This document shows, piece by piece, positions 4,653-59,425 of a DNA stretch of 64,000 bases. The notes under the pieces were generated by a model, which was given only the letters and a program-made list of their open reading frames with translations, was not told the origin of the DNA and searched no databases. The DNA comes from Octopus vulgaris (Eukaryota): positions 134,664,001-134,728,000 of the forward strand of contig OX597818.1 of assembly GCA_951406725.2 (NCBI GenBank), read 5' to 3'. The position numbers and the translations under genes were made by a program. Each line of letters begins with the position of its first letter. Positions within the stretch are counted from its first letter, which is position 1.

Positions 4653-5329
4653 GCGTGGGAGATATCACCCACTTCATCAGCTGGTGTTCAGAAATGTCCG
4701 CAAAACACCACTTTCCCATGAGAGACAACTGCCGCTATGTCGCAGCTGTTTTGTTTCTGACTATTGTATGAAGCTTGCTCTAATTTTATAGGGGGTTCAT
4801 GGTTCAAATTAGTATATATTTTGAATAGGATTTGATTGGTAGAGGTATCAAGTGACGATGTTTGGTGTCGTAAGTTAAGGCTGACACGGTTGACTAAATA
4901 TTTTCTGTCAAGTGTTTATAGAGGATGAAAACATGATTAAGTTTATAACCTTTTGCACGCTTTCCCGCTACGTCTGTGCGTTGGTGTCACGTTATAGTAT
5001 ATTTTGCGCCTAAAATAAAGGCCAACACGATTAAGTGAATATCAAGGAACTCCTGCCCCAATTGCAGGGCCTGCATCAACCTTATTGAAGACACAGCATA
5101 CAAATTCAAATCAGGACAGATTTTTACCGTAATGCATCACTACAAACACTTGGCAGAAAACAGTCAGTCGCTGATTTTGCACCAAGCTAAAAAGCTAGTC
5201 CTAAAATCTCTCTAGGAGAGCAAGTAATGTTCGTAGCCACGTCAACATGGCTGTTCCGTTCTGAAGGACTTGACTGCGATTTTTAAGCCTCCAGCTAGTT
5301 AACAATGCACACCTGCATCCGATATATTC

Positions 5330-5375
5330 AGTACTGAAGAGAGGCAGAAATAGCCCGAAACCAGACTGGTATGCT
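5330..5375 (+). ncRNA. Type I hammerhead ribozyme
   Basis: AGTA-CTGAAGA-G(A)GGC.AGAAATA.GCCC-GAAA-CCAG.A.CTGG-TA-TGCT; predicted GUA cleavage after 5371. Confidence 0.75.
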
Positions 5376-5687
5376 TGTCCCGTCGCTAAACGGTGGTAGG
5401 GGTTTTTGTTCCCCTGTTCGCAGTATATTGGATGCAGCTGTGCATCGTTAACCACCGAGAGGAGATATCCTCTTGCGCTTAAAAAATCGCAGTAAAGTCC
5501 GTTCGAATAGAGCATCCAAGTTGAAGTGGCTATGAATATTACTTGCTAGTATAACAACTGCGATTATCTCCTAGAGAGATTTTAGAACTAGTTCTTTAGT
5601 TTGTTGCAAAATCAGCGACTAAGGGTCACTTGAATTTATATGTTACGAGCAGAGGTGAGCTACTGCCATCTCTAGCAGACGAGGTGT

Positions 5688-5737
5688 CCAGTACTGAAGA
5701 GAAGCATAAATAGCCCGAAACCAGACTGGTTTGCTGG
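5688..5737 (+). ncRNA. Type I hammerhead ribozyme (second tandem copy, stem II weakened)
   Basis: CCAGTA-CTGAAGA-GAAGC.ATAAATA.GCCC-GAAA-CCAGACTGG-TT-TGCTGG. Confidence 0.65.
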
Positions 5738-5908
5738 TCCCGTCGCTAGAAGGTGGAATGGGGTTCGTTCCCTTGTTCGCAATATATCGGAAGCAGTGGC
5801 GCATCGTTAACCAGCTAGAAGAGATGTCCCCTACGGCTTAAAAAATTGCAGTAAAGTCCGTTCGAGTGGAACAGCCATGTTGAAGTGGCTACGAACATAA
5901 CTTGCTAT

Positions 5909-5952
<44 letters not shown>

Positions 5953-7000: not shown

Positions 7001-7698
7001 TTGTGTGATTGGGTCTTTAATAACCAGGGGTCAATTTCAGTTCAATCGTAGAAAGGAATTCAATGGAATTCAGCCATTCCTTCTCTCTCTCTCTTTCTTT
7101 TTCACTTCTCTCCTTGCTCGACACACGCATCAAATTTAAGTATCTTAATTTTCCCATTCAGATCGTTCGTGGTTTCAAATCTCCTCCAAAATTACAAGAG
7201 GTCTAGTTAAGAATTTTTATTCAAGTAACAAAATTTCTTTCAACAATATCTTTCTTTTAAGCGTGACGCTCGCGTCAAGTACGTACAAAAAATAAATTGG
7301 CGTATTAATATTCTGATTATAGCTGTATATATAACAACCCCATAATAATATTTTCTTTATTTTCATTTTACATTACCTTATTTCCTTTTTTTATTTATCT
7401 TAGTATAGCAACTTTAATTGGTTTACTTTTATAAAAATATTTTAAAAAGAGAATTTTTTTAGTATAAGTGTTTTTCTTATAATTTTTTTTTATTATAGGC
7501 TATATTAAATCTCTGAGTGATATATAAACAGTAGGCGCAGGAGTGGCTGTATCGTAAGTAGCTTGCTAACCAGCCACATGGTTCTGGGTTCAGTCCCACT
7601 GCGCGGCACCTTGGGCAAGTGTCTTCTGCTATAGCCCCGGGCCGACCAATGCCTTGTGAGTGGATTTGGTAGACGGAAACTGAAAGAAGCCTGTCGTA

Positions 7699-7747
<49 letters not shown>

Positions 7748-7868
7748 ACAATAAAGGAACGGCCATAATAGGCCATTCACCCACTAGAAATAACAGCCAA
7801 AGCTTCAACCGCAAATAAAAGTTAATTCAGTAAACCAGGAGAAAATTTTAAAAAACATTTACCCTGTA

Positions 7869-7975
7869 ATTTCTTATACGATATACCGTTTCATCTGCTG
7901 ATTAGTGGTAAACTAACCTGATTAAATTAAATCAAGCCAATCTTCCACAGGCCCTCAGATTCTTCAGTAAGAAAT
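7869..7975 (-). ncRNA. Type I hammerhead ribozyme (inverted copy)
   Basis: Reverse complement of the HHR at 8402-8508, with TCTTCAG at 7961-7967. Confidence 0.85.
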
Positions 7976-8401
7976 AGCCCAAGACGGAACAGATATTTTC
8001 ACGAGGCATTTCCGACGTTGCCAAGTTAATATCTGACCTAAAATTTTCAAATCGTCGCACTCGCGCCAAATTTATCGGCAGCAAATAAATATAAGCCGTC
8101 GATTCCATTACGGAATTAACCAGAAAATTCATAATTAATCAATATAGGGTGGCAAAAAAAAAAAAAAAAATTTTGTAGAATTCTTTTGCCACCAGCGGCC
8201 TAGTAGGAAAAAATTAAAATAGTCAAAGACTATATTGATTAATTATGAATTTTCTGGTTAATTCCGTAATGGAATCGACGGCTTATATTTATTTGCTGCC
8301 GATAAATTTGGCGCGAGTGCGACGATTTGAAAATTTTAGGTCAGATATTAACTTGGCAACGTCGGAAATGCCTCGTGAAAATATCTGTTCCGTCTTGGGC
8401 T

Positions 8402-8508
8402 ATTTCTTACTGAAGAATCTGAGGGCCTGTGGAAGATTGGCTTGATTTAATTTAATCAGGTTAGTTTACCATTAATCAGCAGATGAAACGGTATATCGTA
8501 TAAGAAAT
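8402..8508 (+). ncRNA. Type I hammerhead ribozyme with long stem II
   Basis: Stem I ATTTCTTA/TAAGAAAT (8 bp); CTGAAGA 8410-8416; stem II ATCTG/CAGAT plus a G.U-rich distal hairpin; GAAA 8485-8488; stem III CGG.TATA.TCG; GUA cleavage after 8500. Confidence 0.9.
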
Positions 8509-8893
8509 TACAGGGTAAATGTTTTTAAATTTTCTCCTGGTTTACTGAATTAACTTTTATTTGCGGTTGAAGCTTTGGCTGTTATTTCTAGTGGGTGAAT
8601 GGCCTATTATGGCCGTTCCTTTATTGTTGATGTTGAACTTAAAAATGGTCTTTGACTATTTTAATTTTTCCTACTAGGCCGCTGGTGGCAAAAGAATTCT
8701 ACAAAATTTTTTTATGCCACCCTATATTGATTAATTATGAATTTTCTGGTTAATTCCGTAATGGAATCGACGGCTTATATTTATTTGCTGCCGATAAATT
8801 TGGCGCGAGTGCGACGATTTGAAAATTTTAGGTCAGATATTAACTTGGCAACGTCGGAAATGCCTCGTGAAAATATCTGTTCCGTCTTGGGCT

Positions 8894-9000
8894 ATTTCTT
8901 ACTGAAGAATCTGAGGGCCTGTGGAAGATTGGCTTGATTTAATTTAATCAGGTTAGTTTACCATTAATCAGCAGATGAAACGGTATATCGTATAAGAAAT
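8894..9000 (+). ncRNA. Type I hammerhead ribozyme (second tandem copy)
   Basis: Identical to 8402-8508 at an offset of 492; cleavage after 8992. Confidence 0.9.
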
Positions 9001-9227
9001 TACAGGGTAAATGCTTTTTAAATTTTCTCCTGGTTTACTGAATTAACTTTTATTTGCGGTTGAAGCTTTGGCTGTTATTTCTAGTGGGTGAATGGCCTAT
9101 TATGGCCGTTCCTTTATTGTTGATGTTGAACTTAAAAATGGTCTTTGACTATTTTAATTTTTTCCTACTAGGCCGCTGGTGGCAAAAGAATTCTACAAAA
9201 TTTTTTTTTGCCACCCTATATTGATTG

Positions 9228-9283
<56 letters not shown>

Positions 9284-9668
9284 ATTGTGTGTCTGTGTTT
9301 GTCCCCCTAGCATTGCTTGACAACCGATGCTAGTGTGTTTACGTCCCCGTCACTTAGCGGTTCGGCAAAAGAGACCGATAGAATAAGTACTGGGCTTACA
9401 AAAGAATAAGTCCCGGGGTCGATTTGCTCGACTAAAGGCGGTGCTCCAGCATGGCCGCAGTCAAATGACTGAAACAAGTAAAAGAGTAAAAGAGTAGTAA
9501 TACGGAATCGTAACATATAATTGCCAACCAAGTGTGACGTCCTATACGAGACACTGCTACTGACGTTTCTATAAGAGATGTCCCAGGAGAACATCTCTTC
9601 CAGCTGGCTAACGACACACATTCTGTGTCCGATTAGTATTTGCGAGGGGAGATCATCGCTCCCATCTC

Positions 9669-10426: not shown

Positions 10427-11693
10427 ATCGCTGTTTTCGTCCGCCACTATAAAGGCTTTTTCCATTGCGCCAGAGAAAAAATTTGTTTGCTTGTTATCAG
10501 TCGTAAGACACCGTTGTTTTCACCGTTAATGCTTCTGTATTTCATGTTTCTGTATTCCATTATTGTTTTTTGTTTTTTTATATCTGTCCCTTTTGCTGTC
10601 CTGGTGTTCGTATGCATTCGATCCTTCTTCCAGGAAATCTACGCTTCCAGCTTAGTTTTTCTAATGCTCGTTGCTTGTTTTTCTTGGAGGGCTGGCCGTG
10701 ATCTAGTAATCTCAAGATTAATCAGCCGAAATTACTACGATGATCCGGTTCTTGACTGAAGACTGAGGGTTTCGAATGTCCTGTCCGTGTTTATTGTGTC
10801 GTCTTCTAAGAGTTATACGTTCTTGTCCATGTTGTATTTTTCTACATACCTTAACATATATTCCAGGCGCCCCGTACCCCCCTTAACATTTATGTGAGCA
10901 CATATTCTTAATAATTGGTACGACTCTCTGTTTGTCTCTCTCTCTCTCTCATTTTTACTTGATCTGTCCCCCTCTCTCTCTTTTCTCTCTACTCATCCTC
11001 TTTTTCTCTTCTCTTTCCTCTGATTCTTTGGTCTAGTCTTCCACTACCCTCCTATTTCTTTGTCTCGCTCTGCACTCACAGGTCATTCTTCGACACCCAT
11101 CCCTTCTCCTCTCTGATTCCTTCTTTCTCTCTCTTCTCTCTCTTTGTTGCGTTTGTCCCTCCTCTCTCTCTCTCTTCCTTTGCTTCTCTTTCTTTTCTTT
11201 TCCCTCTTCTCTGTCACGTGACTGTTGGCCGAAATCTGCCTTTCAGCCTCTGACCCTCGTTCTGTTAACATCGCTGTTTTCGTCCGCCACTATAAAGGCT
11301 TTTTCCATTGCGCCAGAGAAAAAATTTGTTTGCTTGTTATCAGTCGTAAGACACCGTTGTTTTCACCGTTAATGCTTCTGTATTTCATGTTTCTGTATTC
11401 CATTATTGTTTTTTGTTTTTTTATATCTGTCCCTTTTGCTGTCCTGGTGTTCGTATGCATTCGATCCTTCTTCCAGGAAATCTACGCTTCCAGCTTAGTT
11501 TTTCTAATGCTCGTTGCTTGTTTTTCTTGGAGGGCTGGCCGTGATCTAGTAATCTCAAGATTAATCAGCCGAAATTACTACGATGATCCGGTTCTTGACT
11601 GAAGACTGAGGGTTTCGAATGTCCTGTCCGTGTTTATTGTGTCGTCTTCTAAGAGTTATACGTTCTTGTCCATGTTGTATTTTTCTACATACC

Positions 11694-11784: not shown

Positions 11785-12240
11785 TATTATATATATAGGA
11801 GTGGCTGTATGGTAAGTAGGTTGCTTACCAACCACATGGTTTCGTGTTCAGTCCCACTGCGTAACATTGGGCAAGTGTCTTCTACTATAGCCTCGGGCTG
11901 ACCAAAGCTTTGTGAGTGGATTTGGAAGACGGAAACTGAAAGAAGCCCGTCGTATATATGTATATATATATGTGTGTGTGTGTGTGTTTGTGTGTGTGTC
12001 TGTATTTGTCCCCCCAACATCGCTTGACAACCGATGGTGGTGTGCTTACGTCCCCGTAACTTAGCGGTTCGGCAAAAAGAGACCGATAGATTAAGTATAT
12101 ATAGGCTTACAAAGAATAAGTCCTGGGGTCGATTTGTTCGACTAAAGGCGGTGCTCCGGCATGGCCACAGTCACATGAAACAAGTAAAAGATATGAATAT
12201 GTTTAAATATCTAACTTGTCCTTTATGCTTGAGGTTTATG

Positions 12241-12583: not shown

Positions 12584-12659
12584 TTCCTTTATTCTCGACA
12601 TATGTTTCGAAGGAATAAAGGGTGCATTATGCCGCCTTCTCATCAGGAAAAACAAGGAA
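12584..12659 (-). ncRNA. Type I hammerhead ribozyme in a TA-flanked PLE-like terminus (~12545-12990)
   Basis: Minus strand: TTCCTTGTTTTTC-CTGATGA-GAAGG...CCTTC-GAAA-CATATG-TC-GAGAATAAAGGAA. Confidence 0.85.
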
Positions 12660-19735: not shown

Positions 19736-19991
19736 ATTTCCTGCCACAAATTGAGAGGGAGAATCTATTACAATACAGTAAGTAGAGTATTGTAGAATGG
19801 ATTAACGTACAGCTGAGAGCAGTACAGCATACTACAGCGTAGTGTTGTAGAGTATATTACATTGCAGATGTCAACTGTATCCTTTGGTAGAGTACAGCAA
19901 GATACCGTACAATAGAGTACAACATACGGAACTTTGTGGTTTCCGTCACTGTTTACAATTATCTTTTAAAAAATCTTCTAATGTATCATAT

Positions 19992-20403
19992 AGGCGCAGG
20001 AGTGGCTGTGTGGTAAGTAGCTTGCTAACCAACTACATGGTTCCGGGTTCAGTCCCACTGCGTGGCATCTTGGGCAAGTGTTTTCTGCTATAGCCCCGGG
20101 CCGACCAATGCCTTGTGAGTGGATTTGGTAGACGGAAACTGAAAGAAGCCTGTCGTATATATGTATATGTATATATATATATGTATGTGTGTGTTTGTGT
20201 GTCTGTGTTTGTCCCCCTAGCATTGCTTGACAACCGATGCTGGTGTGCTTACGTCCCCGTCACTTAGCGGTTCGGCAAAAGAGACCGATAGAATAAGTAC
20301 TGGGCTTACAAAGAATAAGTCCCGGGGTCGATTTGCTCGACTAAAGGTGGTGCTCCAGCATGGCCACAGTCAAATGACTGAAACAAGTAAAAGAGTAAAA
20401 GAG
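19992..20403 (+). mobile_element. SINE family B, full length
   Basis: A box TGGCTGTGTGG, B box GGTTCAGTCCC, internal microsatellite, GTAAAAGA tail. Confidence 0.85.
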
Positions 20404-21752: not shown

Positions 21753-22540
21753 CCACAGCATAGTACTACAGTACTGTACAAAGTAACTGGCTGTTAATCA
21801 GAAGGTATGGAGATCAGTGTGTGATGCTAGAGTGAAACGCTTTGAAACTGAATGTAGGAGACTGCTTTAAGAGATGAGGAGACGTCGTATGTCTGTGTAT
21901 GTATGTATATGTTGCTCGGGGTCATTTTCGGTGCCCTCAGTGACACAAGATCTGCCTATTGCATATCGGTCTTGCAAGCCACGTCCGCTCATATGAGAAA
22001 CAATGTGCTAGAGGCGAAGTAAGATGAATGTCTTGGATCGACGCTGTCATCAACTTTGATGGGCTGCCATAAACCAAAAGAGCTGTACAAAACAGTACAG
22101 TAGAATACACTAACGCTTAGTGTAGTACTACAGTTCATTACATTACAGTACAGGAGAATATATTACTATAATAGAATAACATAGGGTAAAAGCAGCACAG
22201 CAGTCATTCCAACAAAACGGTACAATGCAGTATAGACCGATGTGTAAAGCCGATAGACGACAATTCACTTTTGCATCATTTTGATAACGTATTTTACGAG
22301 TCTTGTCGAGAGACGAATTTAAATGTGGTAACTGGTTTATTGTGAAAATCTTTTCTGGTGAACGTGGCAAGGTTCAGTAACCTGGATCGGTTGTTAAAGG
22401 AAGAATGTCGGATGGATTTCGGTTAATAGACTGTAGAAAAAACATGTTGGTGTAATTAGCGTTAATTTACAATGTTTAGTTGAGTCATGGATTACTCAAC
22501 TAAACTCGTTGATTTAACTTTGACAATATATTTAGTTATA

Positions 22541-23700
22541 CCTATTTCATTATTACCCACAAGGGGCTAAACACAGAGGGGACAAACAAGGACAGACATA
22601 GGTATTAAGTCGATTACATCGACCCCCAGTGCGTAACTGGTACTTAATTTATCGACCCCGAAAGGATGAAAGGCAAAGTCGACCTCGGCGGAATTTGAAC
22701 TCACAACGTAACGGCAGACGAAATACCTATTTCTTTATTACCCACAAGGGGCTAAACACAGAGGGAACAAACAAGGACAGACATAGGTATTAAGTCGATT
22801 ACATCGACCCCCAGTGCGTAACTGGTACTTAATTTATCGACCCCGAAAGGATGAAAGGCAAAGTCGACCTCGGCGGAATTTGAACTCACAACGTAACGGC
22901 AGACGAAATACCTATTTCTTTATTACCCACAAGGGGCTAAACACAGAGGGAACAAACAAGGACAGACATAGGTATTAAGTCGATTACATCGACCCCCAGT
23001 GCGTAACTGGTACTTAATTTATCGACCCCGATAGGATGAAATGCAAAGTCGACCTCGGCGGAATTTGAACTCACAACGTAACGGCAGACGAAATACCTAT
23101 TTCTTTATTACCCACAAGGGGCTAAACACAGAGGGAACAAACAAGGACAGACATAGGTATTAAGTCGATTACATCGACCCCAGTGCGTAACTGGTACTTA
23201 ATTTATCGACCCCGAAAGGATGAAAGGCAAAGTCGACCTCGGCGGAATTTGAACTCACAACGTAACGGCAGACGAAATACCTATTTCTTTATTACCCACA
23301 AGGGGCTAAACACAGAGGGAACAAACAAGGACAGACATAGGTATTAAGTCGATTACATCGACCCCAGTGCGTAACTAGTACTTAATTTATCGACCCCGAA
23401 AGGATGAAAGGCAAAGTCGACCTCGGCGGAATTTGAACTCACAACGTAACGGCAGACGAAATACCTATTTCTTTATTACCCACAAGGGGCTAAACACAGA
23501 GGGAACAAACAAGGACAGACATAGGTATTAAGTCGATTACATCGACCCCCAGTGCGTAACTAGTACTTAATTTATCGACCCCGAAAGGATGAAAGGCAAA
23601 GTCGACCTCGGCGGAATTTGAACTCACAACGTAACGGCAGACGAAATAGCGCTAAGCATTTCGCCCGGCTTGCTAACGTTTCTGCCAAGCTCGCCGCCTT
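22541..23700 (-). repeat. SINE A head + six tandem 184-185 bp bodies
   Basis: Unit starts at 22541, 22726, 22911, 23096, 23280 and 23464; single head at ~23649-23700. Confidence 0.9.
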
Positions 23701-25496: not shown

Positions 25497-26103
25497 ATCT
25501 ATATATTATTCATATAAAAGTACAGTGTACATTTAAACACACAAGAGATGGCCTTAACAGTACATCTGACTCGCTAGACCACTAGTAGCAAAGAAATTTT
25601 CTTAATTTTTTTGCTACCCTAAGATTTATTAATTAATGATAAAAGGTTATTTGGCTAATTTTGAAAGAAAATCGGCATTTGCATTTGTTGCCGAAAAAAA
25701 CCGTGCGTGCGCGTTGGATTTTGAAAAATTATAACATATAAACGCGAGGCATGTTTTTTATTGCCTCGTCTTTATATGTTAATCTTGTCTTCCTGCTGAC
25801 GAGAGCTTTGCCAATTGTAAATTATTTTATTTACAAAAGATTGCTTGAAACTATGCATAGACCAGGAAAAATAGGGTAAATGTTTTTATTTTTCATTCCC
25901 TATCAAAATTACAACTATTAGTGGTTTGTAGTTTAACTATTCTTTCTAGCGAGTCAGATGTCCTGTTAAGGCCATCTCTTATGTGTTTAAATGCACACTG
26001 TGTTTTTATATGAATAATATATAGTCTGTTGACTAATTTTTTTCTTCTCGCTAGACCACTGGTAGCAAAGAATTTTTCTAAATATTTTTGCTACCCTAAT
26101 ATT

Positions 26104-26107
<4 letters not shown>
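25497..26107 (+). mobile_element. Diverged sister of the 492-bp HHR element (unit ~477 bp), with inverted 5' segment
   Basis: 25497-25578 is inverted versus 25945-26025; the terminal ~60 bp is repeated at ~25571 and ~26048; ends at (TA)n. Confidence 0.75.
25790..25868 (+). ncRNA. Type I hammerhead motif with U16.1->A mutation (probably inactive)
   Basis: TTCCTG-CTGACGA-GAGC...GCTT-GAAA-CTATGCATAG-AC-CAGGAA. Confidence 0.7.
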
Positions 26108-26181
<74 letters not shown>

Positions 26182-26214: not shown

Positions 26215-26313
26215 TTCCTTTATTCTCGACATATGTTTCGAAGACTGCATATTCTTAATTCCGAAGGAATAAAGGGTGCATTATGCCGCCTTCTCATCAG
26301 GAAAGACAAGGAA
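26215..26313 (-). ncRNA. Type I hammerhead ribozyme in a TA-flanked PLE-like terminus (26178-26375)
   Basis: Minus strand: TTCCTTGTCTTTC-CTGATGA-GAAGGCGGCATA...TATGCAGTCTTC-GAAA-CATATG-TC-GAGAATAAAGGAA. Confidence 0.85.
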
Positions 26314-38044: not shown

Positions 38045-38455
38045 AGGAGCAGCTGTGTGGTAAGTAGCTTGCTAACCGACCACATGGTTCCGGGTTCAGT
38101 CCCACTGCGTGGCATCTTGGGCAAGTGTCTTCTGCTATAGCCTCAGGCCGACCAAAGCCTTGTGAGTGGATTTGGTAGACGGAAACTGAAAGAAGCCTGT
38201 CGTATATATGTATACATATATATATATGTATGTTTGTGTATATGTTTGTGTGTCTGTGTTTGTCCCTCTAGCATTGCTTGACAACCGATGCTGGTGTGCT
38301 TACGTCCCCGTCACTTAGCGGTTCGGCAAAAGAGACCGATAGAATAAGTACTGGGCTTACAAAGAATAAGTCCCGGGGTTGATTTGGTTGACTAAAGGCG
38401 GTGCTCCAGCATGGCCGCAGTCAAATGACTGAAACAAGTAAAAGAGTAAAAGAGT
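38045..38455 (+). mobile_element. SINE family B, full length
   Basis: Matches 19992-20403; absent from the paralogous segment at ~39865. Confidence 0.85.
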
Positions 38456-38774: not shown

Positions 38775-39346
38775 TATAGGCACAAGGCCCGAAATTTGGG
38801 GAAAGGGGAATAGTCAATTTCATCGACCCCCAGAGCGTAACTGGTACTTATTTCATCGACCCCGAAAGGATGAAAGGTAATGTCGACCTCGGCGGAATTT
38901 GAACTCAGAACGTAGCGACAGGCGAAATACCTATTTCTTTACTGCCCACAAGGGGCTACCCACAGAGGGGACAAACAAGGACAGACAAACGGATTAAGTC
39001 GATTATATCGACCCCAGTGCGTAACTGGTACTTACTTAATCGACCCCGAGAGGATGAAAGGCAAAGTCGACCTCGGTGGATTTGAATTCAGAACGTAGCG
39101 ACAGGCGAAATACCTATTTCTCTACTGCCCACAAGGGGCTACACACAGAAGGGACAAACAAGGACAGACAAACGGATTAAATCGATTATATCGACCCAGT
39201 TCGCAACTGCTACTTATTTAATCGACCCTGAAAGGATGAAAGGCAAAGTCGACCTCGGCGGAAATTGAACTCAGAACGTAACGGCAGACGAAATACCGCT
39301 AAGCATTTCGCCCGGCGTGCTAACGATTCTGCCAGCTCGCCGCCTT
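38775..39346 (-). repeat. SINE A head + three tandem bodies
   Basis: GAAATACCTATTTC junctions at ~38925 and ~39107; head at 39295-39346. Confidence 0.85.
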
Positions 39347-57121: not shown

Positions 57122-57562
57122 AGAATCCCTAGAAATAGAAGAACAATTATAAGAAAAATAAAAAGAATTAACAAGAAAAAATCAACCAACTTAAATACTG
57201 CCAGCAGCAACGCATCCATTCGACTGCCATTGCATTACTCGAATCGAAAAAAACACGACCTCCGTAAAAGCATGATGGCCATCATTAACAGTCAAAGAGC
57301 AGCTGAGGAGAGTTGGGCCACTGAGAAAATAAAACTCAATCCCAAAATGTTCTTTTCATTTGCAAAAACAAACAACAACATAAAGACGCTATTCCCACTG
57401 TTGGTCCACTGGTTGACGAGAACAACACTCTATACGATGATGCAAAATCCATGTGCGAGATACTACAGAGACAATACTGCTGATGTGTCTTTAGTGATCC
57501 TAATGTGGTTGATCTGGCTAGTATCAGTGATGTAAACCCTCAACTAACCATATCTGACATAA

Positions 57563-59425
57563 CTATTTCTTTACTACCCACAAGGGGCAAAACACAGAGA
57601 GGACAAACAAGGACAGACAAACGGATTAAGTCGATTATATCGACCCCTGTGCGCAACTGGTACTTATTTAATCGACCCCGAAAGGATGAAAGGCAAAGTC
57701 GACCACGGCGGAATTTGAACTCAGAACGTAGCGGCAGACGAAATACCTATTTCTTTATTACCCACAAGGGGCCAAACACAGAGAGGACAAACAAGGACCG
57801 ACAAACGGATTAAGTCGATTATATCGACCCCTGTGCGCAACTGGTACTTATTTAATCGACCCCAAAAGGATGAAAGGCAAAGTCGACCACGGCGGAATTT
57901 GAACTCAGAACGTAGCGGCAGACGAAATACCTATTTCTTTATTACCCACAAGGGGCCAAACACAGAGAGGACAAACAAGGACAGACAAACGGATTAAGTC
58001 GATTATATCGACCCCTGTGCGCAACTGGTACTTATTTAATCGACCCCGAAAGGATGAAAGGCAAAGTCGACCACGGCGGAATTTGAACTCAGAACGTAGC
58101 GGCAGACGAAATACCTATTTCTTTATTACCCACAAGGGGCCAAACACAGAGAGGACAAACAAGGACCGACAAACGGATTAAGTCGATTATATCGACCCAG
58201 TGCGCAACTGGTACTTATTTAATCGACCCCAAAAGGATAAAAGGCAAAGTCGACCTCGGCGGAATTTGAACTCACAACGTAGCGGCAGATGAAATACCTA
58301 TTTCTTTAATACCCACAAGGGGCCAAACACAGAGAGGACAAACAAGGACCGACAAACGGATTAAGTCGATTATATCGACCCCAGTGCGCAACTGGTACTT
58401 ATTTAATCGACCCCGAAAGGATGAAAGGCAAAGTCGACCACGGCGGAATTTGAACTCAGAACGTAGCGGCAGACGAAATACCTATTTCTTTATTACCCAC
58501 AAGGGGCCAAACACAGAGAGGACAAACAAGGACAGACAAACGGATTAAGTCGATTATATCGACCCCTGTGCGCAACTGGTACTTATTTAATCGACCCCGA
58601 AAGGATGAAAGGCAAAGTCGACCACGGCGGAATTTGAACTCAGAACGTAGCGGCAGACGAAATACCTATTTCTTTATTACCCACAAGGGGCCAAACACAG
58701 AGAGGACAAACAAGGACCGACAAACGGATTAAGTCGATTATATCGACCCCAGTGCGCAACTGGTACTTATTTAATCGACCCCGAAAGGATGAAAGGCAAA
58801 GTCGACCACGGCGGAATTTGAACTCAGAACGTAGCGGCAGACGAAATACCTATTTCTTTATTACCCACAAGGGGCCAAACACAGAGAGGACAAACAAGGA
58901 CCGACAAACGGATTAAGTCGATTATATCGACCCCAGTGCGTAACTGGTACTTATTTAATCGACCCCGAAAGGATGAAAGGCAAAGTCGACCTCGGCGGAA
59001 TTTGAACTCACAACGTAGCGGCAGATGAAATACCTATTTCTTTATTACCCACAAGGGGCTAAACACAGAGGGGACAAACAACGACAGACATAGGTATTAA
59101 GTCGATTACATCGACCTCAGTGCGTAACTGGTACTTAATTTATCGACCCCGAAAGGATGAAAGGCAAAGTCGACCTCGGCGGAATTTAAACTCAGAACGT
59201 AACGGCAGATGAAATACCTATTTCTTTATTACCCACAAGGGGCTAAACACAGAGGGGACAAACAAGGACAGACATAGGTATTAAGTCGATTACATCGACC
59301 CCAGTGCGCAACTGGTACTTATTTAATCGACCCCGAAAGGATGAAAGACAAAGTCGATCTCGGCGGAATTTGAACTCAGAACGTAGCGGCAGATGAAATA
59401 CCGCTAAGCATTTCATCCGGCGTGC
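57563..59425 (-). repeat. SINE A truncated head + ten tandem 183-184 bp bodies
   Basis: Unit starts at 57563, 57746, 57930, 58114, 58297, 58481, 58665, 58849, 59033 and 59217. Confidence 0.9.

What the first reader, a model, noticed from the sequence alone, without database searches (positions are those of the whole stretch)
7744..9232. 492-nt hammerhead retrozyme-like element: tandem units plus a circularly permuted inverted copy, inserted in (TA)n
Seen: two direct units with an exact 492-bp period and one inverted near-full unit. Each holds an intact type I HHR with an 8-bp stem I, CUGAAGA/GAAA core, GUA site and a long G.U-rich stem II (GATTGGCTTGATT/AATCAGGTTAGTT pairs well only with G.U, i.e. 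as RNA). The inverted copy starts at a different phase and reads across the unit junction. There is no credible RT ORF, and the copies are almost identical, so the element is young. Known: metazoan non-LTR retrozymes are HHR tandem repeats that yield circRNAs, and Penelope-like elements carry minimal type I HHRs in tandem or inverted pseudo-LTRs. Inference: a non-autonomous, PLE-mobilised retrozyme that self-cleaves into a 492-nt monomer (8501-8992), circularises, and is copied by rolling-circle reverse transcription. I know of no description of this family.
Basis: partly seen in the sequence, partly recalled or inferred. Interest (0 to 1): 0.92.

Follow-up and report, generated by a model that had tools for sequence, protein, structure and literature searches.

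The report
Ribozyme retroelement copied from RNA circles
This is a young, non-coding jumping element of a known kind (a self-cutting 'retrozyme' that borrows a Penelope-type retrotransposon's enzymes), and the shape of its genomic copies points to each insertion being written from both DNA strands off one RNA molecule that was either cut open by its ribozyme or closed into a circle.

Summary
Confirmed: a 1,489-bp insertion in (TA)n with three intact type I hammerheads and a 492-nt cut-to-cut unit. The class is published (non-LTR retrozymes; Penelope-derived), so it is not categorically new. The family is large (3,932 copies of one motif). What the copies add is mechanism. (1) Insertions are two head-to-head arms; one ends at unit position ~131, the other at ~238 (34 of 36, then 31 more), never alike: the Penelope 'tail', here 107 nt. 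(2) Arm 5' ends pile up just behind the ribozyme cut (28 of 56 arms); both arms stop there (13 loci) or both read through (6), with one discordant. (3) Variants are fixed across all units of both arms; none of 46 unit-specific variants is shared between arms. This fits one monomeric RNA, open or circular, copied by two reverse transcriptases. Not shown: cleavage, circles, or the partner; five autonomous Penelope-like families share no sequence with the unit. Candidate A-to-I edits appear in probable RNA runs. The scan noted a similar TA-targeted repeat with a tRNA instead of a ribozyme in another genome.

The parts
7531..7700 (+). Left half of a ~420-bp dispersed host repeat whose central (TA)n tract received the insertion
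   Evidence: left and right halves are contiguous in intact copies (19991-20399, 38045-38450, 11797-12191)
7697..7743 (.). Left (TA)n target tract
7744..8229 (-). Arm 1 (cDNA primed at the short start site): unit phase 148 to 492, through the cut, to 131; 3' end at 7744 = short end
7869..7975 (-). Type I hammerhead of arm 1, cut after 7877
8229..8230 (.). Head-to-head junction of the two arms, 1-nt overlap
8230..9232 (+). Arm 2 (cDNA primed at the long start site): phase 222 to 492, one full unit, then 1 to 238; 3' end at 9232 = long end
8402..8508 (+). Type I hammerhead 1: stem I 8402-8409 with 8501-8508, core 8410-8416, stem II 8417-8484, GAAA 8485-8488, stem III to 8499, cut after 8500
8501..8992 (+). 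492-nt monomer between the two cuts (predicted linear and circular RNA); non-coding
8514..8515 (+). Splice donor 14 nt behind the cut; one contig of run X3 joins it to a host exon
   Evidence: L119
8584..8609 (+). Candidate A-to-I editing sites at 8584, 8590, 8609 (unit 84, 90, 109)
   Evidence: no matched DNA run, so candidate only
8894..9000 (+). Type I hammerhead 2, cut after 8992
9125..9232 (+). The 107-nt 'tail' between the two RT start sites, with a GC-clamped hairpin at about 9178-9215
   Evidence: compensatory change in the related family at 26060-26095
9233..9276 (.). Right (TA)n target tract
9276..9490 (+). Right half of the interrupted host repeat

Best explanation
A non-autonomous Penelope-like element (non-LTR retrozyme) moved in trans by a (TA)n-cutting Neptune-type RT/GIY-YIG protein. 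Steps: (1) read-through transcription of a tandem arm [inferred]; (2) hammerhead cleavage releases the 492-nt monomer [motif shown, activity inferred from 5'-end pile-up]; (3) part of the monomers are ligated into circles [inferred]; (4) the borrowed enzyme cuts both strands of a (TA)n tract and primes two cDNAs on one RNA, one at unit position ~131 and one at ~238 [ends and pairing shown; single RNA inferred]; (5) on an open monomer both RTs run off at the cut and give a ~350-bp ribozyme-less dead insert; on a circle both read through the cut and roll, giving clonal arrays of up to ~10 units [patterns shown, template state inferred]; (6) the two cDNA ends are joined head-to-head by microhomology or short fill-in [junctions shown]. 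The window is a read-through event with 1 pass on one arm and 2 on the other.
For: Pairing: 34 of 36 two-armed loci have one short and one long end, none alike; in 40 loci picked only by the short end, 31 have a long far end, 0 a short one; older subfamilies follow the rule; the autonomous family N2 does too, 3 of 3. Run-off: 28 of 56 arm 5' ends lie at unit 1-25, against 3 and 1 in the flanking 25-nt bins. Concordance: both stop 13, both pass 6, discordant 1 (p=1.8e-4); with the 9 loci of the same list held earlier, 13/13/1 (p=7e-7). Clonality: site 341 never mixed in 37 loci; in 76 loci 41 fixed, 5 partial, 97 singleton variants, 26 fixed across both arms, 0 of 46 unit-specific variants shared between arms. 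Junction across the cut exact in 169 of 176. Ribozyme under selection: no fixed variant in the 11 invariant core positions, three loci fixed at free N7; 99% of cells paired, one compensatory pair. Two rare genomic A>G alleles at sites that look edited in RNA occur in both arms of 3 loci. Known biochemistry: PAc cuts and extends both strands, starts at two internal RNA sites that define the tail, and is a predicted dimer (PMC11167929).
Against: No raw RNA reads: circles, cleavage ends and strand are not shown. The partner was not found: none of five young autonomous families shares sequence with the unit, and their tails are 32-40 nt, not 107. Five partial variants (L034, L039, L059, L062, L187) and some masked ones (L046, L065, L035) show that arrays are not always clonal. 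In L032, L067 and L198 one arm stops at the cut and the other passes it. Stops behind the cut are also enriched on later passes (11 of 70), which partly cleaved linear multimers would give as well. The stop zone is A/T-rich and holds a splice donor, and other stall zones exist (215-222, 458-473). If most singletons are assembly errors or arose after insertion, the cross-arm test has little power. PAc did not need its ribozyme in vitro and no reads ended at its cut (PMC11167929).
Confidence: 0.65

Rival explanations
1. Same element and enzyme, but the template is a linear, partly cleaved multimer; the ribozyme only trims the 5' end and no circle is used.
For: Explains run-off at the cut on first and later passes; L060 has two full units in each arm and both stop at 13-16. 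PAc uses unprocessed RNA in vitro (PMC11167929).
Against: Linear copying can only shorten arrays and cannot fix new variants in all 4-8 units. Unit-specific variants of the parent should recur in both arms: 0 of 46 do. In three loci one arm passes the point where the other ran off.
Confidence: 0.17
2. A linear cleaved monomer is copied repeatedly by RT jumping from its 5' end back to its 3' end, telomerase-style; equivalent to a circle without ligation.
For: Gives clonal units and stops at the cut. Two of 176 junctions carry short insertions at the cut. PLE RTs are kin to telomerase (PMC8557442).
Against: 174 of 176 junctions have no indel, and stop or pass is shared by both arms, as expected of an RNA state and not of independent jumps.
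Confidence: 0.1
3. Short two-armed inserts arise by PLE priming, and arrays grow afterwards as satellites by unequal crossing-over and conversion (the local-amplification model of bioRxiv 10.64898/2026.07.22.740005).
For: Partial periodic variants in L039, L034, L059; inverted arms can convert each other; L046 has a perfectly symmetric centre.
Against: Would have to act on both arms of most loci within about 0.1% divergence yet leave only 5 partial against 97 singleton variants; does not explain shared stop or pass at the cut.
Confidence: 0.08

Closest known systems
Metazoan non-LTR retrozymes (Cervera & de la Pena 2020, PMC7229834, passages read; Li, Clavereau & Pollet 2026, bioRxiv 10.64898/2026.07.22.740005, parts 1-3 of 5 read)
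   Same: Non-coding tandem units, one type I hammerhead per unit, low GC, proposed circRNA intermediate, proposed PLE origin; unit length within the 51-972 bp range of the preprint.
   Different: 68-nt stem II; dispersed two-armed inserts in (TA)n with two fixed ends; no homology to a pLTR found (24 of 57 Xenopus families had one); the parts read describe no head-to-head arms, paired ends, run-off at the cut or clonality test.
Penelope-like elements, Neptune and Poseidon clades (PMC11167929 parts 1-2 of 4; PMC8557442, PMC3846280, PMC4209133 passages)
   Same: Head-to-head inverted copies, a tail at one end, AT-rich or (TA)n targets, hammerhead upstream of two internal RT start sites. Cut-to-short-end distance 131 nt against 137 nt in the genome's own family N2.
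   Different: No ORF; tail 107 nt against 30-40 nt; canonical hammerhead with 4-bp stem III against minimal ones; the tail is strictly one per insert here, 'optional' in the papers.
Non-autonomous Chlamys elements such as MRC1 (PMC8557442, passage)
   Same: Non-autonomous PLEs with multicopy head-to-tail insertions.
   Different: Those resemble their autonomous partner at the 3' end and mostly lack canonical hammerheads; this one has the ribozyme and no detected partner homology.
LINE-1 twin priming (recalled, not from a call)
   Same: Two cDNAs primed from the two target ends give an inverted insert joined by microhomology.
   Different: There the second primer site is variable and the two pieces abut without overlap; here both sites are fixed and both arms re-copy the same sequence many times.

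Membership tests
Non-LTR retrozyme | Type I hammerhead in each tandem unit | tested here: met
   (211 hammerheads, 35 haplotypes in 90 loci)
Non-LTR retrozyme | Short tandem repeat of a few hundred bp, GC under 45% | tested here: met
   492 bp, up to ~10 units; 161 G+C in 406 unmasked positions, the masked ones mostly A/T
Non-LTR retrozyme | No protein coding, no LTR | tested here: met
   longest frame 66 aa; bounded by (TA)n; PBS and PPT not searched
Non-LTR retrozyme | Self-cleavage of the RNA | not testable with these tools
   indirect only: 28 of 56 arm ends at 1-25; active fold 1.8 kcal/mol above the MFE, stem III can pair as a dimer
Non-LTR retrozyme | Accumulation of circular RNA | tested here: inconclusive
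   wrap-around contigs in 4 of 4 runs laid, one a single 523-nt contig; a tandem transcript or DNA gives the same, and RNA is only a guess
Non-autonomous Penelope-like element | Tandem plus head-to-head inverted copies | tested here: met
   36 of 39 loci two-armed; 31 of 40
Non-autonomous Penelope-like element | Tail extension at one end (two RT start sites) | tested here: met
   ends at 126-133 and 228-242; 107 nt, longer than the published 30-40
Non-autonomous Penelope-like element | Microsatellite or AT-rich target | tested here: met
   (TA)n at the outer ends of two-armed loci; empty-site comparison in the window
Non-autonomous Penelope-like element | Sequence homology to the pLTR of an autonomous PLE | tested here: inconclusive
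   none with the five families examined; 6,136 GIY-YIG candidates exist and only 150 were scored
Autonomous Penelope-like element (ordinary pseudo-LTR) | RT plus GIY-YIG ORF between the repeats | tested here: not met
   PLE protein hits in 3 of 90 loci, all outside the element

The most novel reading that the evidence does not exclude
Double rolling-circle target priming: a Penelope-type enzyme pair copies one ribozyme-made RNA circle from two fixed sites at once, one for each end of the cut (TA)n target; whether the hammerhead is open or ligated decides between a dead 350-bp insert and a fertile array; and adenosine edits on that single RNA are written into every unit of both arms. The same rule would explain the tandem, inverted and tailed shape of Penelope-like elements in general, including the 4.27-kb tandems of the autonomous family in this genome.
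Probability: 0.5. Interest if true: 0.85.

Novelty: new variant of a known kind. Interest (0 to 1): 0.66.

Why it matters
That retrozyme circles are the templates of retrotransposition, and what hammerheads do for Penelope-like elements, are proposals: one review calls the in vivo role 'still a mystery' (PMC7761336, passage) and the only in vitro PLE system did not need its ribozyme (PMC11167929). This family records the answer in about a thousand young genomic inserts: run-off at the cut, shared fate of both arms, clonal units. It supplies a 492-nt substrate, two mapped start sites and five candidate enzymes, so the question becomes a direct bench test. It also suggests a route by which RNA editing reaches the genome.

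Tried and rejected
Rfam scan: no hammerhead match; the MIR5048 and mir-1277 hits are the inverted arms and TA tracts, below gathering score. Assembly artefact: rejected, same anatomy at 79 further loci on many contigs. Ordinary pseudo-LTR: rejected. Partner search: Pfam PF26215 is not in the library; GIY-YIG and three protein searches found five young RT+GIY-YIG families, none with sequence similarity to the unit; N2 is the best guess by geometry only. The loose end in run X3 that looked like an ORF start behind the ribozyme is a splice into a host exon. L183 looked like a chimera with a PLE arm; the PLE fragment is a decayed copy about 880 bp away. No RNA holder on record was listed; this is no evidence on expression. 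Contigs cannot show ends or strand. The uniform-null test (p=1e-21) ignores short-arm bias, so I rely on the flanking-bin control. Rows left out: L064 (diverged, gapped); L184 and L190; L171, L182, L184, L190 and all one-armed loci in the 56-arm list; 86 of 492 positions masked near homopolymers. The A>G excess among fixed variants (6 of 16 against 5 of 87 singletons, p=0.002) can also come from selection on pairing (against G>A only p=0.05), so it is not counted as proof of editing. Literature searches found no description of this family or of the stop/pass and clonality patterns; subscription papers, repeat libraries and supplements were not seen.

Full report
Observation. Between two (TA)n tracts lies a 1,489-bp insert: a minus arm 7744-8229 and a plus arm 8230-9232, joined head-to-head. 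A motif scan finds three type I hammerheads with 8-bp stem I, cutting after 8500, 8992 and 7877; 0 of 3000 shuffles give one. Rfam has no hit. The cuts are 492 nt apart. The insert splits a ~420-bp host repeat at its central TA tract; the two halves are contiguous in other copies in the window. Below, unit position 1 is window 8501.

Family. The genome (G000, 2.8 Gb; octopus-like by my guess, unverified) gave 252 matches in the 39 scored of 939 candidates, the listed ones 96-100% identical. One 28-nt motif occurs 3,932 times. Long ends next to TA number 610 on the forward strand, so about 1,200 in all (the reverse count is inflated by overlapping matches). Short ends of the youngest subfamily number 98 forward, about 190 in all. 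Twelve loci with a long end but no exact short end were mostly older subfamilies, 75-97% identical. Singletons at 0.47 per unit put the youngest wave near 0.1% divergence.

Two fixed ends, one of each. Of 39 loci, 36 are two-armed; 34 of these have one outer end at 126-133 and the other at 228-242, two have a long end with an odd partner, none has two alike. That set favours long arrays, so I took 40 more loci chosen only by the short end (all not yet held on contigs 1-4 but one): 31 have a long far end, one a degenerate long end, 7 are one-armed, one runs out of the fetched stretch, none has a second short end. This is the Penelope 'tail', described as a 30-40 bp extension at one end (PMC8557442, PMC3846280, passages) and shown in vitro to lie between two internal RT start sites, with both target strands cut and extended by a predicted dimer (PMC11167929, parts 1-2 of 4). 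Here it is 107 nt and holds a hairpin with a compensatory change in a related family. The autonomous family N2 shows the same pairing in 3 of 3 two-armed loci. Inner junctions mostly show 0-6 nt of overlap or short inserts.

Footprint of the ribozyme. In the 28 simple two-armed loci of the second set, 28 of 56 arm 5' ends fall at positions 1-25, against 3 at 26-50 and 1 at 468-492: a sharp edge at the predicted cut. Thirteen inserts are ~350-bp forms in which both arms stop there and carry no ribozyme core. Where both arms reach the cut, both stop (13) or both pass (6), one is discordant (p=1.8e-4); adding the nine loci of the same list held earlier gives 13, 13, 1. The fate is a property of the event, as expected if both RTs copy one RNA that is open or closed. 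Against a simple reading: the zone is A/T-rich and holds a splice donor, stops there are also enriched on later passes (11 of 70), and three loci have one arm passing where the other stopped.

Clonal units. Site 341 is A or T in the family yet never mixed in 37 loci. In 76 loci there are 41 fixed, 5 partial and 97 singleton variants; 26 fixed ones span both arms, 6 of them private to one sampled locus; none of 46 unit-specific variants is shared between matching units of the two arms. The junction across the cut is exact in 169 of 176 passes, with five single substitutions and two short insertions. Linear copying cannot lengthen an array or fix a new variant in all its units, so a monomer must be copied repeatedly; a ligated circle is the simplest such template. 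The test loses power if singletons are mostly assembly errors, and the partial variants (L039 has a period near three units) show some multimeric templates or later duplication.

Selection on the ribozyme. Fixed variants never hit the 11 invariant core positions, while three singletons do; three loci are fixed at the free N7. Across 14 haplotypes 99% of cells pair, with one compensatory pair and seven further pair types; the sequences are related, so this is support and not proof. Loop III stays palindromic or nearly so and the site varies GUA to GUC. The active fold lies 1.8 kcal/mol above the minimum and stem III pairs far better as a dimer, a known control that favours cleavage in multimers and spares circles (PMC4209133, passage).

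Partner. The genome holds at least five young RT plus GIY-YIG families; N1 and N2 carry the CX2-5CxxC linker of Neptune elements (motif as in PMC8557442). All end in TA; four show two ends 32-40 nt apart. None shares sequence with the unit. N2 is the best guess: 76 of 76 scored copies round to 100% protein identity, it has a minimal hammerhead 137 nt before its short end (131 here) and forms full 4.27-kb tandems. PLE protein hits occur in 3 of 90 unit-bearing loci, all outside the element.

RNA. No run on record as RNA was listed; 14 holders are guessed RNA, contigs only. All four laid runs wrap across the unit, one as a single 523-nt contig, which a circle, a tandem transcript or DNA would all give. 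One contig joins unit position 14 to a host exon at an AG acceptor, which suggests real spliced RNA. A>G at positions 84, 90 and 109 makes 15-59% of contig depth in three runs of three studies but is absent from about 300 genomic segments held; genome-wide, G84 occurs 5 times against 3,932 and G109 6 times. In three loci these rare alleles sit in both arms, in one case in all four units. This fits edits copied from one RNA, but no matched DNA was available, other unexplained differences exist, and one run is from another species label.

Comparison and verdict. It works like, and meets every testable feature of, a non-LTR retrozyme (PMC7229834) and a non-autonomous Penelope-like element; homology to a partner is open. 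The circle model (PMC4209133, PMC7761336) and the PLE origin (bioRxiv 10.64898/2026.07.22.740005, parts 1-3 of 5; supplements closed) are published proposals. Seven literature searches found no account of this family or of strict end pairing, run-off at the cut and clonal arms; an octopus repeat annotation lists recently active Penelope families and does not contain the word ribozyme (passages). Repeat libraries and supplements were not seen. Verdict: real, a new variant of a known kind, valuable as genomic evidence on an open mechanism. Identity as a PLE-mobilised retrozyme about 0.93; the full one-RNA, open-or-circular model 0.65; interest 0.66.

Noticed in passing
window 25567-26109: Related, diverged retrozyme copy (about 480-bp period) ending in (TA)n at the long end; different stems I-III around the same core, cleavage triplet mutated, same donor motif behind the ribozyme, compensatory change in the tail hairpin. 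Relatives at L124 and L213.
   Followed up: partly
window 5166-5910: A second hammerhead family: 360-bp period, 83-84% identity, cores at about 5335 and 5695, an inverted arm at 5166-5284, ends in (AC)n; a PLE endonuclease fragment lies at 5057-5161.
   Followed up: partly
window 12597-12646 (-) and 26280-26310: Further type I hammerhead-like motif with palindromic stem III on the minus strand, present in at least two dispersed copies (a similar one in L076).
   Followed up: no
L077:208 and L077:455: Another hammerhead family with a 59-nt stem II in an inverted pair.
   Followed up: no
L152, L154, L158, L160: Autonomous family N2 forms full-length 4.27-kb head-to-tail tandems and two-armed inserts with one short and one long end; clonality of its units was not tested.
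   Followed up: partly
L113:881-4581: Neptune-type families N1 and N2 appear to have a separate upstream ORF (479 aa in N1) overlapping the RT ORF, unlike the single ORF described for PLEs; no canonical hammerhead seen in N1, N3 or N5.
   Followed up: no
window 8514/8515 and L119:1499: The unit's splice donor is joined to an exon of a host gene on contig C21 in one contig of run X3: possible exonisation. The donor copy upstream was not located.
   Followed up: partly
window 8308-8333: An E2F-like site followed by a CHR-like site (both consensus motifs recalled) upstream of the ribozyme; a similar pair occurs in the 25.6-kb family and E2F-like sites in family N3. Could be an internal cell-cycle promoter; untested.
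   Followed up: no
L031, L035, L049, L057, L163, L169, L171, L184, L211: Extra template switches near the inner junction (short unit pieces out of order), and AT-rich fill-in repeats at junctions of L060, L165, L170, L182.
   Followed up: no
window 22538-23648, 38822-39297, 57559-59402: Tandem arrays of a 183-185-bp dispersed repeat, up to 10 copies at 96-99% identity; no hammerhead found there by the scan.
   Followed up: no
window 10427-11569: An exact duplication of at least 300 bp with an 843-bp period.
   Followed up: no
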